Source of the DNA: a virus
Taxonomy: Duplodnaviria > Heunggongvirae > Uroviricota > Caudoviricetes
Reading direction: 5' to 3' (one strand)
IMG/VR virus record: IMGVR_UViG_3300029234_000155
DNA: 4,459 nucleotides
Made by a program: the position numbers and the translations under genes
Notes under the pieces: generated by a model
What the model was told of the DNA's origin: nothing
The model's database searches: none
The model's input: only the letters and a program-made list of their open reading frames with translations
In this document: piece by piece, positions 1 to 4,459 of the stretch
How the letters are laid out: every line of letters starts with the position of its first letter
How positions within the stretch are numbered: the first letter of the stretch is position 1

Positions 1-20
1 GCTTCCATCGGAAACGATGA

Positions 21-386
21 TCTGGCAGCCTGAGTTCACAGATAAAACACTCTCCAGGAAACCCGGGGCGGTTCAGTCAGCATTGCCATGGTAAGGGCGA
101 AGCCAGCACAGCGTGCAGAGGGTGTAAGGGTAAAGGGATTGTTCTGGATGAAAAAAGAACCCGGTTTCATGGCGTACCGGTATATAAGATTTGTGGGCGT
201 TGTAATGGAAACCGGTTTAGTCGTTTACCGACCACGCTGGCACGACGTCATGTCCAGAAGCTGGTACCAGACCTGACCGATTATCAGTGGTATAAGGGGT
301 ATGCGGACGTCATTGGTAAACTGGTAACAAAGTGCTGGCAGGAAGAAGCATACGCGGAAGCGCAATTGAGGAAGGTGACGAGATAA
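21..386 (+). CDS. quuQ: Phage late-gene antiterminator Q, C-terminal portion (lambda-Q-like zinc-finger domain); 5' part outside the window and reading frame interrupted near the window start
   Basis: The frame with codons starting at positions divisible by 3 is open from 21 to the TAA at 384-386. It translates to ...TACRGCKGKGIVLDEKRTRFHGVPVYKICGRCNGNRFSRLP...LVPDLT...AQLRKVTR, which matches the CxxC...CxxC zinc-binding domain and ...VTR terminus of lambda Q as I remember it. There is no ATG/GTG/TTG start in this frame inside the window, and an in-frame TGA sits at 18-20. The provided ORF track misses it because there is no start codon. Symbol by synteny with Qin, from memory. Confidence 0.65.
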   Translation, partial: SGSLSSQIKHSPGNPGRFSQHCHGKGEASTACRGCKGKGIVLDEKRTRFHGVPVYKICGRCNGNRFSRLPTTLARRHVQKLVPDLTDYQWYKGYADVIGKLVTKCWQEEAYAEAQLRKVTR

Positions 387-417
387 ATGATTTTTGCTGA
401 AGATGGCGACATGATGT

Positions 418-453
418 TTGCATTTTTCAAAAAATATGGATAAAATTTTTTCA
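418..453 (+). promoter_or_regulatory. pR'-like sigma70 late promoter with promoter-proximal pause element
   Basis: -35 TTGCAT (418-423), 17-bp spacer, -10 TAAAAT (441-446), then 6 nt to an A at 453 that begins AACGATGGG. Lambda pR' has the same geometry and the same initial transcribed sequence AACGATGGG, whose -10-like AACGAT induces the sigma70-dependent pause where Q loads (recalled from memory). It lies immediately downstream of the Q stop codon. Confidence 0.6.
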
Positions 454-491
454 ACGATGGGCTTTGTATACCCGACGTTAAGAAAAAGTAG

Positions 492-522
492 AAAACCCGC
501 TGATGAGCGGGTTTTGTGCTTT
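492..522 (+). terminator. tR'-like intrinsic terminator closing a short (about 65 nt) leader transcript from the late promoter
   Basis: Perfect 10-bp stem AAAACCCGCT (492-501) / AGCGGGTTTT (506-515) with 4-nt loop GATG, followed by GTGCTTT. Its position about 40 nt downstream of the predicted start is as expected for the terminator that Q-modified RNA polymerase reads through. Confidence 0.7.
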
Positions 523-807
523 AAATGGGGCAATGGTAATGTTGAATCTCATCCCGGGACTCATGTCTGTTAACTTATTATTTAGCTGGTGACTTGGTTA
601 TTTGCCTGATGTTTAAAATGTTTTCTTCCAGTACAATGTCCCTAAACACAATGAGTCTGCTTATTATATTATTAGCAGAGCTATTACGGCCAAAGTACAG
701 CATAAGCTTTTAAAGCCAATCAACCAGTCATCAAGACAGACGGGGTTATTCATAAAAACTCTCCATGTGTGATCCGATGGGGCCTGAAATTAAAGCTTTA
801 ATATAGC

Positions 808-1020
808 TCATGAAAGGTAAACATTGGCAGCTGAAGGGCCACGCAGACCATTTATCCGGCAAAATTCCACGCGTAATCCGGTGGTAATTTCTTCTGCATC
901 GCGGAGATTGAGCGCTGAAACATGAAGCTGGACATCGATACGACCATCGGATGGGGTGATAAGACCCTTGCCGCTTTTGCCGTCAAAGGTTTTGACAATT
1001 CCTGTCATTTTACGGGACAA
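808..1020 (-). CDS. cspF: Cold-shock-domain protein, CspF/CspH-type (70 aa)
   Basis: ORF translates to [70 protein letters not shown], with the conserved MSxKMTGxVK N-terminus and GPxAANV C-terminus of the CspA family. The start is TTG (plus-strand CAA at 1018-1020) with AAGGA 6 nt upstream; the first ATG is at codon 5. Symbol by synteny (divergent from cspB in the prophage). Confidence 0.85.
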
Positions 1021-1124
1021 AAAAATTCCTTAATACTGATAACTTGGCGCACTATACACACGTTCCTGAAGAAAGCTATAGTTTTTTGATGGGGTTGAAG
1101 ATGGCTGGATGTCTAAAATAAACA

Positions 1125-1161
1125 TTGCTTCATATGTTCAACTATGCGTTAATGATTGCGT
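1125..1161 (+). promoter_or_regulatory. cspB promoter (sigma70) with upstream AT-rich UP-like tract
   Basis: -35 TTGCTT (1125-1130), 17-bp spacer, -10 GTTAAT (1148-1153), predicted start about 1160-1161 just before CGGTTTGAAGAACAGAC. The arrangement parallels the cspA promoter (TTGCAT / CTTAAT / ACGGTTTGACGTACAGAC) as I recall it. AT-rich tract TCTAAAATAAACA lies upstream. Confidence 0.55.
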
Positions 1162-1320
1162 CGGTTTGAAGAACAGACGATATACGAAGTAGTTTACTAA
1201 AGCAGTTCTCATTTCAGGTGTTATTCACTTATTCCTTCTTTGAGTCTCTCCAATTAAGTACGAAGTCGTTTCTGTTATGCAAACCATTTATGCCGAAAGG
1301 CTCAAGTTAAGGAATGTAGA
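1161..1320 (+). promoter_or_regulatory. cspB 5' untranslated leader (about 160 nt) with cold-box-like element at its 5' end
   Basis: GGTTTGAAGAACAGAC (1163-1178) resembles the cspA cold box. The leader length of about 160 nt from the predicted start agrees with the roughly 161-nt cspB leader I recall from the literature. SD AAGGA at 1308-1312, 8 nt before the ATG. Confidence 0.5.
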
Positions 1321-1536
1321 ATGTCAAATAAAATGACTGGTTTAGTAAAATGGTTTAACGCTGATAAAGGTTTCGGCTTTATTTCTCCTGTTGATGGTAG
1401 TAAAGATGTGTTTGTGCATTTTTCTGCGATTCAGAATGATAATTATCGAACCTTATTTGAAGGTCAAAAGGTTACCTTCTCTATAGAGAGTGGTGCTAAA
1501 GGTCCTGCAGCAGCAAATGTCATCATTACTGATTAA
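1321..1536 (+). CDS. cspB: Cold-shock protein CspB (71 aa), CspA-family cold-shock-domain protein
   Basis: ORF translates to [71 protein letters not shown], with canonical RNP1-like KGFGFI and RNP2-like VFVHF motifs. ATG start with SD and long cold-shock-type leader upstream. Confidence 0.95.
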
Positions 1537-1817
1537 AATTCATCGCTCGTCTGTATACGATAACGAAGAAGGCTGATGCCTGAGTAGAGATACGGACAGA
1601 GTAGTGAATATTGGATCTCTTTAATAAAAAGTAAGGAGGTCCAATACATGAAACAATGGCTAGCATATTTGGCAAAATCTTAATCAGGAAAAGTATGCTA
1701 ACCATTGTGGTGAAGTGCAGGTTTGCTGCATGAATAGTTTTACAGCAGAAGCTAACTGCTGGCATGGCAAAACAAAGTGCGTAAGTGGATGACTCCCACA
1801 AAAAGCACCACAATCTC

Positions 1818-1843
1818 AAACCCGCTCAGGCGGGTTTTTTATT
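1818..1843 (+). terminator. Rho-independent terminator downstream of cspB (possibly also serving convergent ynfU)
   Basis: Stem AAACCCGC (1818-1825) / GCGGGTTT (1830-1837) with loop TCAG, followed by TTTATTAT, about 280 nt after the cspB stop. On the minus strand the same hairpin is preceded by an A-run and followed by only TTTGAG, so it is a weaker terminator in that direction. Confidence 0.75.
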
Positions 1844-1899
1844 ATCTGCTTTAAATATATTATTAAAATATAAAAAATACTTGTTACTAATAAAATCAA

Positions 1900-2070
1900 T
1901 CAGGCTACAGCTTTAAGATTTGTCTGGAATACTTTGTTGCAATGAGGGCAGATCAAAAGGGCACCTTTTTGTACTCTTGAAAAACTGTGTTCTGACTCTT
2001 GGGTGCAGTTTGGGCAGGAACATTTAACGAGATAATTACGGCGTGATTTTGAGTTTTTACGTTCTGACAT
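1900..2070 (-). CDS. ynfU: Small zinc-ribbon protein (56 aa), two CPxC motifs
   Basis: Minus-strand ORF MSERKNSKSRRNYLVKCSCPNCTQESEHSFSRVQKGALLICPHCNKVFQTNLKAVA. ATG is the plus-strand CAT at 2068-2070, with AGGA 7 nt upstream on the minus strand. The 73-aa form in the ORF track has an unsupported N-terminal extension. CSCPNC...CPHC is a zinc-ribbon signature. The 56-aa length matches the Qin small protein YnfU as I recall it. Confidence 0.7.
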   Translation of the reverse strand: MSERKNSKSRRNYLVKCSCPNCTQESEHSFSRVQKGALLICPHCNKVFQTNLKAVA

Positions 2071-2289
2071 AGGCTTTTCCTGTATAAATGGCCGTATACA
2101 GTACACTAAATATGAAAACATTTCTCGTATTATTATTTTATATATGACTTTCTTTCAAAATAATTACCCACATTTTTAATGTGTATGTTTTTTTAGCGCC
2201 GTTGAGAACAACGTGTGCTGTCAAAACTACCCCGTAGACTCCGATCTTTTCAAACATATTGCACCATCCGTGTACATCGGGGTGAGGAT

Positions 2290-2505
2290 ATGAAATCAAT
2301 GGATAAGTTAACAACAGGTGTTGCCTATGGCACATCGGCGGGTAATGCTGGTTTCTGGGCATTGCAGTTACTCGATAAAGTAACTCCGTCACAGTGGGCT
2401 GCAATCGGTGTGCTGGGTAGCCTGGTTTTTGGCCTGCTGACGTATCTGACAAATCTTTATTTCAAGATTAAAGAAGACAGGCGTAAGGCTGCGAGAGGAG
2501 AGTAA
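2290..2505 (+). CDS. essQ: Phage-21-type class II holin (pinholin), 71 aa, with dual-start motif (alternative start at 2299 gives the 68-aa form)
   Basis: [71 protein letters not shown]. Two TM segments, the first Gly/Ala-rich (SAR-like), and near-identity to phage 21 S21 as recalled. ATG at 2290 and 2299 (M-K-S-M) parallel the S21-71 antiholin / S21-68 holin pair. GAGGA at 2284-2288 is 10 nt before the second ATG. The GTG-initiated 96-aa extension in the ORF track is not supported. Confidence 0.9.
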
Positions 2506-2509
2506 TCCA

Positions 2510-2817
2510 ATGACTCAAGACTATGAACTGGTTGTGAAAGGAGTCCGTAATTTTGAGAATAAAGTTACGGTAACTGTAGCCTTACAGGACAAAGAACGCT
2601 TTGACGGTGAAATTTTTGACCTGGATGTCGCCATGGACCGTGTTGAAGGAGCTGCGCTGGAGTTTTATGAGGCAGCAGCCAGAAGGAGCGTCCGGCAAGT
2701 CTTCCTGGAAGTAGCAGAAAAATTGTCAGAAAAAGTTGAGTCTTATCTGCAGCATCAGTACTCCTTTAAGATTGAAAATCCTGCCAATAAGCACGAGCGT
2801 CCTCATCATAAATATCT

Positions 2818-2821
<4 letters not shown>
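2510..2821 (+). CDS. ydfR: Hypothetical protein of unknown function (DUF1327-type as I recall), 103 aa, soluble and acidic, embedded in the lysis cassette
   Basis: ORF MTQDYELVVKGVRNFENKVTVTVALQDKERFDGEIFDLDVAMDRVEGAALEFYEAAARRSVRQVFLEVAEKLSEKVESYLQHQYSFKIENPANKHERPHHKYL. AGGAG at 2496-2500 is 9 nt before the ATG. It starts 4 nt after the essQ stop, and its TGA stop overlaps the rrrQ ATG (ATGA at 2818-2821). No hydrophobic segment. Confidence 0.85.
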
Positions 2822-3845
<1,024 letters not shown>

Positions 3846-4027
3846 GGTAATATTAAATCGGAACATTTACATCGCGGAATGTAAAATTTAAATAAAAAGG
3901 ACTCTTCCATGAGCCAAAATTCCTGAAATCTTAAGGGTAAGATAAAAGGTCTTAATCAGAATGACACGTTTTATTAATAAATAAAGCTATTCTTTCATTG
4001 CTGTGTTTTTCTTTACAAAAGTAATCC

Positions 4028-4207
4028 TTGCTATGGGTGGTTAATCATGCGTTAATGGTGTTCTGGTTTGTTACAAATTTATCTGAAGCAGTCATTGTTA
4101 TAATTTTATTATTTGTACCTCTTGAGATTTCCTTGTTGGTTTTTCTCTCTGATATTTTTTTTCGGACCATTCTGCCCAAGGGCTAATTTCTTCAAAAGGT
4201 AATAATT
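4028..4207 (+). promoter_or_regulatory. cspI promoter and about 145-nt cold-shock-type 5' leader
   Basis: -35 TTGCTA (4028-4033), 17-bp spacer, -10 GTTAAT (4051-4056), predicted start about 4063 before TGGTTTG. This is the same GCGTTAATG...GGTTTG architecture as upstream of cspB in this window. The leader length of about 145 nt agrees with what I recall for cspI. AT-rich UP-like tract upstream; SD AAGG 8 nt before the ATG. Confidence 0.5.
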
Positions 4208-4399
4208 ATGTCTAACAAAATGACTGGTTTAGTGAAATGGTTTAACCCTGAAAAAGGTTTTGGTTTCATCACGCCGAAAGATGGCAGCAAAGATGTGTTT
4301 GTCCATTTCTCAGCAATTCAGAGCAACGATTTCAAAACATTAACTGAGAATCAGGAAGTTGAATTTGGTATTGAGAACGGACCTAAAGGTCCTGCCTAG
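4208..4399 (+). pseudogene. cspI: Cold-shock protein CspI gene, 3'-truncated (63 codons; last strand of the cold-shock domain missing) by IS2 insertion
   Basis: [63 protein letters not shown] stops at a TAG (4397-4399) directly after KGPA. The in-window paralog CspB continues AANVIITD after the equivalent KGPA, and CspI is about 70 aa as I recall. The TAG is the first three bases of the IS2-like terminal repeat. Confidence 0.85.
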
Positions 4400-4459
4400 A
4401 CTGGCCCCCTGAATCTCCAGACAACCAATATCACTTAAATAAGTGATAGTCTTAATACT
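4397..4459 (+). mobile_element. IS2 (IS3 family) left end: terminal inverted repeat and first about 63 bp, element continues beyond the window
   Basis: TAGACTGGCCCCCTGAATCTCCAGACAACCAATATCACTTAAATAAGTGATAGTCTTAATACT matches the IS2 left terminus as I remember it (TAGACTGGCCCCCTGAATCTCCAGACAACC...). It contains an internal 9-bp inverted repeat TATCACTTA / TAAGTGATA (4429-4448). It begins exactly where cspI loses homology to its paralog. Confidence 0.75.

What the first reader, a model, noticed from the sequence alone, without database searches (positions are those of the whole stretch)
4208..4459. cspI truncated at codon 63 by an IS2 insertion
The ORF ends with a TAG supplied by the first bases of an IS2-like terminal repeat, removing the last 7 or so residues that form the final beta-strand of the cold-shock domain (compare in-window CspB). 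This is probably a strain-specific insertion that inactivates cspI. The outward-reading IS2 end could also affect expression of neighbouring genes.
Basis: partly seen in the sequence, partly recalled or inferred. Interest (0 to 1): 0.55.

Follow-up and report, generated by a model that had tools for sequence, protein, structure and literature searches.

The report
IS2 insertion truncating prophage gene cspI
A common E. coli jumping gene (IS2) has landed in the last few codons of the cold-shock gene cspI in the defective Qin prophage, cutting off the protein's final strand; this is ordinary pseudogene formation, not a new kind of system.

Summary
Window 76-4396 is 100% identical (4321 bp) to the E. 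coli K-12 Qin prophage. Identity stops after cspI codon 63 (base 4396). Bases 4397-4459 are the left end (IRL) of IS2, and its first three bases, TAG, supply the stop codon. Reference CspI has 70 aa (...KGPAAVHVVAL). The window encodes CspI(1-63), which lacks the AVHVVAL segment that forms beta-strand 5 of the cold-shock barrel.

The junction is real. It recurs in independent metagenome assemblies, and the 63-aa protein is already in NCBI under E. coli. None of 5,426 complete E. coli genomes carries it. It is therefore a polymorphic, lineage-restricted allele.

This end is IRL, whose promoter reads inward, and no hybrid promoter is present. The more likely neighbour effect is polarity on the cold-induced small genes downstream (ynfQ/ynfR/ynfN).

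The window's other end (1-75) is an IS629 end inside quuQ, so the window looks like a short-read contig bounded by two IS copies. The far end of IS2, its 5-bp target duplication and the loss of function could not be tested. This is an ordinary finding of low interest.

The parts
4062..4207 (+). cspI 5' untranslated leader (cspA-type thermoregulator), intact
   Evidence: Rfam RF01766 (cspA thermoregulator) matches 4062-4453 at 113.6 bits against a gathering score of 78. The leader is 100% identical to K-12.
4208..4396 (+). cspI codons 1-63, identical to K-12 cspI
   Evidence: 189/189 nt identical to MG1655 cspI. NCBIfam alignments cover profile positions 1-63 of 70, and the scores fall below every curated cut-off.
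4392..4396 (.). CTGCC, the 5 bp expected to be duplicated at the far IS2 end if this is a simple insertion (prediction)
   Evidence: Two full IS2 copies examined here have 5-bp target duplications, GGTAG and ATTTC. The far end of this copy is outside the window and was not found.
4397..4399 (+). TAG stop codon supplied by IS2 bases 1-3
   Evidence: the reference has GCT (Ala64) here. PMC3299598 gives the IS2 left end as 5'-TAG...TTAA.
4397..4438 (+). IS2 left inverted repeat (IRL, 42 bp)
   Evidence: One search aligns IRL with IRR. The 42-bp length of IRL comes from PMC3299598.
4439..4459 (+). IS2 interior up to the window end. orfA (insC) would start 29 bp beyond the window, at IS2 position 92, reading in the same direction as cspI.
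   Evidence: The L005-L007 extensions show ...GGAGAACAGATGATTGATGTC.... The orfA ATG is at IS2 position 92.
1..75 (+). Right end of an IS629 copy (last codons of its transposase and the terminal repeat ...CCCGGGGCGGTTCA), which interrupts quuQ/ydfT
   Evidence: There is no match to MG1655 before base 76. The 139 bp in L006 are 100% identical to places annotated 'IS3-like element IS629 family transposase'.
76..387 (+). 3' fragment (last 103 codons) of the Qin antiterminator gene quuQ/ydfT, cut off by IS629

Best explanation
An IS2 element (IS3 family, copy-out/paste-in) inserted between nucleotides 189 and 190 of cspI, the cold-inducible CspA paralogue carried by the defective lambdoid prophage Qin. 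Its left end (IRL) abuts the gene, and its transposase genes point the same way as cspI. The first IS2 triplet, TAG, is in frame, so translation stops after Ala63 with no added residues. The product is CspI(1-63). It keeps the RNA-binding motifs on strands 2 and 3 but lacks AVHVVAL, the fifth strand that closes the five-stranded barrel. I infer that this small, marginally stable domain no longer folds stably, which would make this a null or strongly hypomorphic allele. I also infer that the 1.3-kb insertion separates the tightly packed downstream small genes (ynfQ, ynfR, ynfN) from the cold-shock promoter. A visible phenotype is unlikely, because E. coli has nine CspA paralogues and four must be deleted before cells become cold-sensitive. 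The event is ordinary IS-driven decay of a cryptic prophage. The same contig also carries an IS629 insertion in quuQ. Shown here: the junction, the identity and orientation of IS2, the truncation, and recurrence in independent assemblies. Inferred: loss of folding or function, polarity on downstream genes, that the IS2 copy is full length, and that it is a simple insertion with a 5-bp duplication.
For: Identity to K-12 runs up to base 4396 and stops there. Reference CspI is 70 aa. The IS2 end matches 139/139 bp to annotated IS2 copies, including those of K-12. The orfA ATG is at IS2 position 92 and is co-directional with cspI. The same junction is spelled out in four independent assemblies, L005, L006, L007 and L012; two of these (L006, L007) contain the whole window at 100% identity. 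Four more contigs stop exactly at base 4396, and L008 is bounded by both IS junctions at bases 76 and 4396. The 63-aa protein is present in NCBI, ENA, Logan and JGI under E. coli. The truncated protein aligns to positions 1-63 of 70 in CspA-family profiles and falls below all curated cut-offs, whereas in-window CspB passes. It aligns collinearly to residues 1-63 of the 70-residue CspA structure 2L15. A model of in-window CspB places the fifth strand at residues 65-68. Downstream gene gaps are 10, 2 and 4 bp, and YnfR is cold-shock induced (PMC6001520). Cold sensitivity requires deletion of cspA, cspB, cspE and cspG (PMC4956666, citing Xia et al. 2001).
Against: The far end of IS2 and the cspI 3' remnant were never seen. 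The predicted right junction is absent from complete E. coli genomes and from JGI metagenomes. Those collections also lack the left junction, so the negative result is uninformative. Nothing here measures the stability or activity of CspI(1-63). The CspB model is of low confidence (mean pLDDT 65.6). Co-transcription of the downstream small genes with cspI is inferred from spacing and co-induction only.
Confidence: 0.9

Rival explanations
1. The IS2 end marks a larger IS2-mediated rearrangement (adjacent deletion, inversion, or recombination between IS2 copies) rather than a simple insertion. In that case the cspI tail and the downstream Qin genes are gone or lie elsewhere.
For: No contig in any searched collection shows the predicted right junction, IS2 IRR + 0-12 bp + GCTGTTCATG.... 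The locus sits in a heavily IS-ridden prophage, with an IS629 copy 4.3 kb away and many other IS types in this segment in other genomes.
Against: The same collections also lack the left junction, so the absence carries no weight. The two full IS2 copies checked nearby are simple insertions with 5-bp duplications. Short-read contigs always break inside IS copies.
Confidence: 0.15
2. The junction is an assembly chimera at a contig end, and cspI is intact in the organism.
For: The junction lies 63 bp from the window end, and the window looks like a whole short-read contig bounded by repeats.
Against: The identical junction appears in contigs from different samples, whose record names carry different assembler-style labels (k119_, k141_, k127_, NODE_). 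The IS2 sequence starts exactly at its known first base, TAG (PMC3299598). Other contigs branch at exactly base 4396. NCBI holds the 63-aa product.
Confidence: 0.02
3. CspI(1-63) is a natural or still-functional short form. The allele would then be neutral or even selected, for example because CspI or read-through expression is costly.
For: The RNA-binding motifs KGFGFI and VFVHF are retained. The allele persists on at least three slightly different haplotypes.
Against: Every annotated intact cspI seen here is 70 aa. The lost segment is a core barrel strand. Persistence of a null allele is expected for a redundant gene in a cryptic prophage.
Confidence: 0.1

Closest known systems
IS2 (IS3 family) insertion mutations in E. 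coli, the classical polar gal/lac insertions
   Same: The element is the same: 139/139 bp identity to K-12 IS2 over the part visible. Insertional truncation of a gene is the same outcome, and polarity on downstream genes is expected.
   Different: The site is new: no complete genome carries it, and the one paper search for cspI together with IS2 returned nothing describing it. The full element, its IRR and the 5-bp duplication were not observed for this copy.
IS2-generated hybrid promoters (e.g. ampC, Jaurin and Normark 1983, as reviewed in PMC9330008)
   Same: An IS2 end abuts a host gene.
   Different: Those cases use the outward -35 in IRR placed upstream of a gene. Here IRL abuts the 3' end of the gene, and no -35/-10 pair with usable spacing exists at the junction. 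The predicted far junction also gives no -10.
Intact CspI of E. coli K-12 (b1552, Qin prophage; Wang et al. 1999, cited in PMC4956666)
   Same: Leader and codons 1-63 are identical, and the cspA-type thermoregulator leader is present.
   Different: It lacks residues 64-70 (AVHVVAL, strand 5) and its native 3' context.
Other IS2 insertions around cspI in complete genomes (LZYWN_4, after ynfR; MSB1_8B, 81 bp upstream of the cspI ATG)
   Same: Same element, same orientation, same neighbourhood.
   Different: They sit at different sites, and cspI stays intact in those genomes.

Membership tests
IS2 (IS3 family insertion sequence) | Left terminal inverted repeat 5'-TAGACTGG...CACTTAA (42 bp) | tested here: met
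   Bases 4397-4438 match. The 63-bp end is 62/63 identical to two annotated IS2 copies, and the 139 bp in L006 (window's 63 bp plus 76 more) are 139/139 identical to K-12 IS2. The end sequence is described in PMC3299598.
IS2 (IS3 family insertion sequence) | orfA starts about 90 bp inside IRL and reads inward | tested here: met
   It lies outside the window but is visible in contigs L005-L007, which extend the same junction. The ATG is at IS2 position 92 and encodes MIDVLGPEKRRRRTTQ....
IS2 (IS3 family insertion sequence) | Full 1331-bp element with a 41-bp IRR and frameshifted orfAB | not testable with these tools
   All contigs that carry the junction stop within 139 bp of the IS2 start.
IS2 (IS3 family insertion sequence) | 5-bp direct duplication of the target (expected CTGCC) | not testable with these tools
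   The far junction was not found in complete E. coli genomes or JGI metagenomes. Duplications of 5 bp were verified for two other copies.
CspA-family cold-shock protein (CspI) | Cold-shock domain with RNP1 (KGFGFI) and RNP2 (VFVHF) motifs | tested here: met
   Translation. E = 1e-27 to CspA structures.
CspA-family cold-shock protein (CspI) | Complete domain of about 70 aa with five strands that reaches the curated family score | tested here: not met
   Only 63 aa, aligned to profile positions 1-63 of 70. Scores are 129 bits against a cut-off of 144 (CspG) and 120.6 against 130 (CspA). Strand 5 is missing. It is a truncated allele of a member, not an intact member.
CspA-family cold-shock protein (CspI) | cspA-type long 5' leader (thermoregulator) | tested here: met
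   RF01766, 113.6 bits against 78.
IS629 (IS3 family), at the other end of the window | Terminal sequence identical to annotated IS629 | tested here: met
   Window 1-75 plus 64 bp in L006 are 100% identical to places annotated 'IS3-like element IS629 family transposase', and 99.3% identical to IS1203.

The most novel reading that the evidence does not exclude
IS2 orfA lies 91 bp downstream of the new stop codon, co-directional with cspI, and no terminator-like site lies between them. Transcription from the strongly cold-induced cspI promoter could therefore read into the IS2 transposase genes and bypass the weak, OrfA-repressed IRL promoter. IS2 transposition in this lineage would then become cold-inducible. 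Alternatively, the cspI-ynfN stretch could be a true IS2 target hot region. IS2 sits at six or more other sites within about 0.65 kb in complete genomes, roughly 4-6 times my crude random expectation.
Probability: 0.06. Interest if true: 0.35.

Novelty: already known. Interest (0 to 1): 0.1.

Why it matters
It matters little beyond annotation. It shows that cspI in this E. coli lineage should be called a pseudogene (cspI::IS2). It also shows that the window is an IS-bounded contig from a decaying Qin prophage. The junction (...GGTCCTGCC|TAGACTGGCCCCC...) could serve as a lineage marker in metagenomes. It adds one more example of IS-driven erosion of cryptic prophage genes whose function is covered by paralogues.

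Tried and rejected
1. I looked for the same junction in 5,426 complete E. coli genomes. None has it. The nine records with full query coverage have the IS2 end 271-631 bp further downstream.
2. I built the predicted right junction (IS2 IRR + CTGCC + cspI tail) and searched complete genomes. I also searched JGI metagenomes with a flexible 0-12 bp spacer. Neither search found it.
3. As a control, I searched for the left junction in JGI metagenomes and in GTDB species representatives. Neither holds it, so the negative result for the right junction says nothing.
4. I tested for a hybrid promoter. The scan found no sigma-70-like site in the 700 bp around the junction. By hand, -35 candidates at 16-18 bp from the IRL TAGACT score 0-2 of 6. 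A TTGAGA at 4371-4376 lies 20 bp away, which is too far. At the predicted far junction, the IRR TGGAAA faces -10 candidates scoring 0-1 of 6. The idea was rejected.
5. I considered a Shigella origin because IS2 and IS629 occur together. NCBI labels the 63-aa protein Escherichia coli. No Shigella collection was available, so this remains untested.
6. Literature searches for a described cspI::IS2 allele and for experimental deletion of strand 5 in a bacterial cold-shock protein found nothing usable.
7. The single-sequence AlphaFold model of CspB was of low confidence. I used it only for strand positions.

Full report
**What is in the window.** The window carries a lambdoid lysis and cold-shock block:
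- the 3' part of an antiterminator gene;
- cspF on the minus strand (808-1020);
- cspB (1321-1536);
- a holin gene (reported ORF 2215-2505; the annotated essD gene corresponds to about 2290-2505);
- ydfR (2510-2821);
- the lysozyme gene rrrQ (2818-3351);
- rzpQ (3348-3845);
- a cold-shock ORF at 4208-4399.

Against complete E. coli genomes this is the Qin prophage. Window 76-4396 aligns to K-12 MG1655 with 0 mismatches over 4321 bp, and the alignment stops abruptly at both ends.

**The observation.** The cspI ORF starts at 4208 and is identical to K-12 cspI for 189 nt (63 codons). The reference then continues GCT GTT CAT GTA GTG GCG CTT TGA, giving ...KGPAAVHVVAL (70 aa). The window instead reads TAG ACT GGC CCC.... 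The stop codon at 4397-4399 therefore belongs to the foreign DNA. Seven residues are lost and none is added.

**What the foreign DNA is.** Bases 4397-4459 are 62/63 identical to the first 63 bp of two full-length elements whose CDS is annotated 'IS3-like element IS2 family transposase' (L002 and L014). Both elements are 1331 bp and both are flanked by 5-bp direct repeats, GGTAG and ATTTC. Metagenome contigs that contain the same junction extend it by up to 76 bp. That 139-bp stretch is 100% identical to IS2 copies in many genomes, including the six copies of K-12 MG1655.

The published description of IS2 gives a left end beginning 5'-TAG and a right end beginning 5'-TGG, with IRL 42 bp and IRR 41 bp (PMC3299598). 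The end in the window is therefore IRL. The orfA start codon lies at IS2 position 92, 29 bp beyond the window, and reads in the same direction as cspI.

**Whether the junction is real.** An exact-sequence look-up of the 63-aa product found it in 69 index blocks, never on a contig longer than 10 kb.
- Four independent contigs spell out the same cspI-IS2 junction: L005, L006, L007 and L012.
- L006 and L007 contain the whole 4459-bp window at 100% identity, including both ends.
- Four further contigs stop at exactly base 4396. L008 begins at exactly base 76 and ends at exactly 4396, so it is bounded by both IS junctions.
- NCBI holds the same 63-aa sequence as 'cold shock protein CspI [Escherichia coli]'.

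Chimeric assembly is therefore very unlikely.

**How widespread the allele is.** None of the 5,426 complete E. coli genomes has this junction or the predicted far junction. The allele occurs on at least three haplotypes that differ by a few SNPs. L005 has cspI::IS2 with an uninterrupted quuQ, which suggests that the IS2 insertion came first and the IS629 insertion later in the lineage of the window. 'Strain-specific' is better replaced by 'lineage-restricted, polymorphic'.

**Effect on the protein.** The truncated product aligns to positions 1-63 of the 70-position CspA/CspG profiles. It falls below all curated cut-offs (129 bits against 144, and 120.6 against 130). In-window CspB covers positions 1-68 and passes. 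The truncated product also aligns collinearly with residues 1-63 of the 70-residue CspA structure 2L15. A single-sequence model of in-window CspB has mean pLDDT 65.6, so I used it only for topology. It gives strands at 2-13, 18-23, 30-33, 50-56 and 65-68.

By alignment, CspI strand 5 lies within residues 64-70, all of which are removed. From general knowledge of cold-shock domains, which are small five-stranded barrels of low stability, I infer that CspI(1-63) does not fold stably and is non-functional. This was not tested.

Any phenotype is expected to be slight. E. coli has nine CspA paralogues, and cspA, cspB, cspE and cspG must all be deleted before cold sensitivity appears (PMC4956666).

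**Effect on neighbouring genes.** According to PMC3299598, IRL holds only the weak, OrfA-repressed promoter that reads into the element. The strong junction promoter forms only when IRR and IRL abut with a 17-bp spacer. PMC9330008 places the outward -35 hexamer of such elements in IRR.

Reconstructing the abutted ends gives TGGAAA, a 17-bp spacer, then TAGACT. IRL therefore contributes a -10-like hexamer pointing inward. For a hybrid promoter, cspI would have to supply a -35 at 16-18 bp. The candidates score 0-2 of 6, and the consensus scan finds no promoter in the region. At the predicted far junction the IRR -35 would face -10 candidates scoring 0-1 of 6. The outward-promoter idea is therefore not supported.

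A more likely effect is polarity. In the reference the next three genes follow cspI with gaps of 10, 2 and 4 bp. YnfR is strongly induced by cold shock (PMC6001520), which suggests co-transcription with cspI. A 1.3-kb IS2 would uncouple these genes from the cold-shock promoter. This is an inference. The cspA-type leader upstream of cspI is intact (RF01766, 113.6 bits), so cold-induced transcripts should still start and would run into IS2.

**The other end of the window.** Bases 1-75 do not match K-12. Together with 64 more bases in L006, they are 100% identical to the right end of elements annotated IS629. They interrupt the antiterminator gene quuQ/ydfT and leave only its last 103 codons. The window is thus a 4321-bp Qin fragment bounded by two different IS ends. 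That is the typical shape of a short-read contig from an IS-rich E. coli.

**What could not be settled.** Four points remain open:
- whether the IS2 copy is full length;
- whether a CTGCC duplication and the cspI tail lie at its far end;
- which E. coli lineage carries it;
- whether the truncated protein is inactive.

Searches for the far junction were negative. The same collections also lack the near junction, so they carry no weight.

**Verdict.** The finding is correct and its main interpretation is supported. It is an ordinary IS2 pseudogenisation of a redundant gene in a decaying cryptic prophage, made of fully known components. The only mildly unusual readings are cold-driven read-through into the IS2 transposase and a local IS2 target preference. 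Both are speculative.

Noticed in passing
window 1-75 (and 76-387): The left end of the window is the right terminus of an IS629 copy inserted in the Qin antiterminator gene quuQ/ydfT, leaving only its last 103 codons. The window is therefore a 4321-bp K-12-identical fragment bounded by two different IS ends and probably a whole short-read contig. Contig L008 starts at exactly base 76 and ends at exactly 4396.
   Followed up: yes
L005:1-430 against window 1-90: Contig L005 carries the same cspI::IS2 junction but an uninterrupted quuQ. This suggests that the IS2 insertion predates the IS629 insertion in the lineage of the window.
   Followed up: partly
window 1160-1552 and 4062-4453: Both cspB and cspI carry the Rfam cspA thermoregulator (158.8 and 113.6 bits). 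The cspI match runs across the IS2 junction, because the model covers the whole mRNA.
   Followed up: no
L002:5588-6918; L014:1220-2550; hits H2-H9 and H44: Complete E. coli genomes have IS2 in the same orientation at six or more other sites 271-631 bp downstream of cspI codon 63 (in ynfR, in ynfN and beyond). Two genomes have it upstream of the cspI 3' end; in one of them it lies 81 bp upstream of the cspI ATG. With about 21,800 IS2 left ends in 5,426 genomes, a random expectation for such a stretch is about 1-2, so the region may be a mildly preferred IS2 target. The estimate is crude and not corrected for shared ancestry.
   Followed up: partly
window 76-4396 against the complete genomes listed: The top-ranked complete genomes listed carry this 4.3-kb Qin segment at 100% identity but interrupted by other IS elements (IS1, IS3, IS5, IS100, ISVsa5). 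The segment is a general sink for IS insertions.
   Followed up: no
L010:1-28: The public metagenome contig ERZ783819 NODE_1967 begins with what I recognise from memory (not checked with a tool) as an Illumina adapter sequence (CTTTCCCTACACGACGCTCTTCCGATCT) fused to Qin DNA. This would be an untrimmed-adapter artefact in the deposited assembly.
   Followed up: no
L003:8881-9068; L004:8235-8422: Two NCBI draft contigs carry a cspI-like gene about 94% identical, in a different lambdoid prophage that has lipocalin, YbgA-like and AraC-type genes between Q and the holin. L003 ends at the position equivalent to window 4395, one base before the junction position here, and L004 appears to end at the same place (its tail reads ...AAAGGCCCCGC). 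I did not determine whether an IS2 copy lies there too.
   Followed up: no
protein cluster of P0001: The 90%-identity cluster that holds the 63-aa CspI fragment has a 113-aa 'host specificity protein J, partial' as its representative and mixes tail-protein fragments with cold-shock proteins. This looks like a clustering artefact of the protein collection.
   Followed up: no
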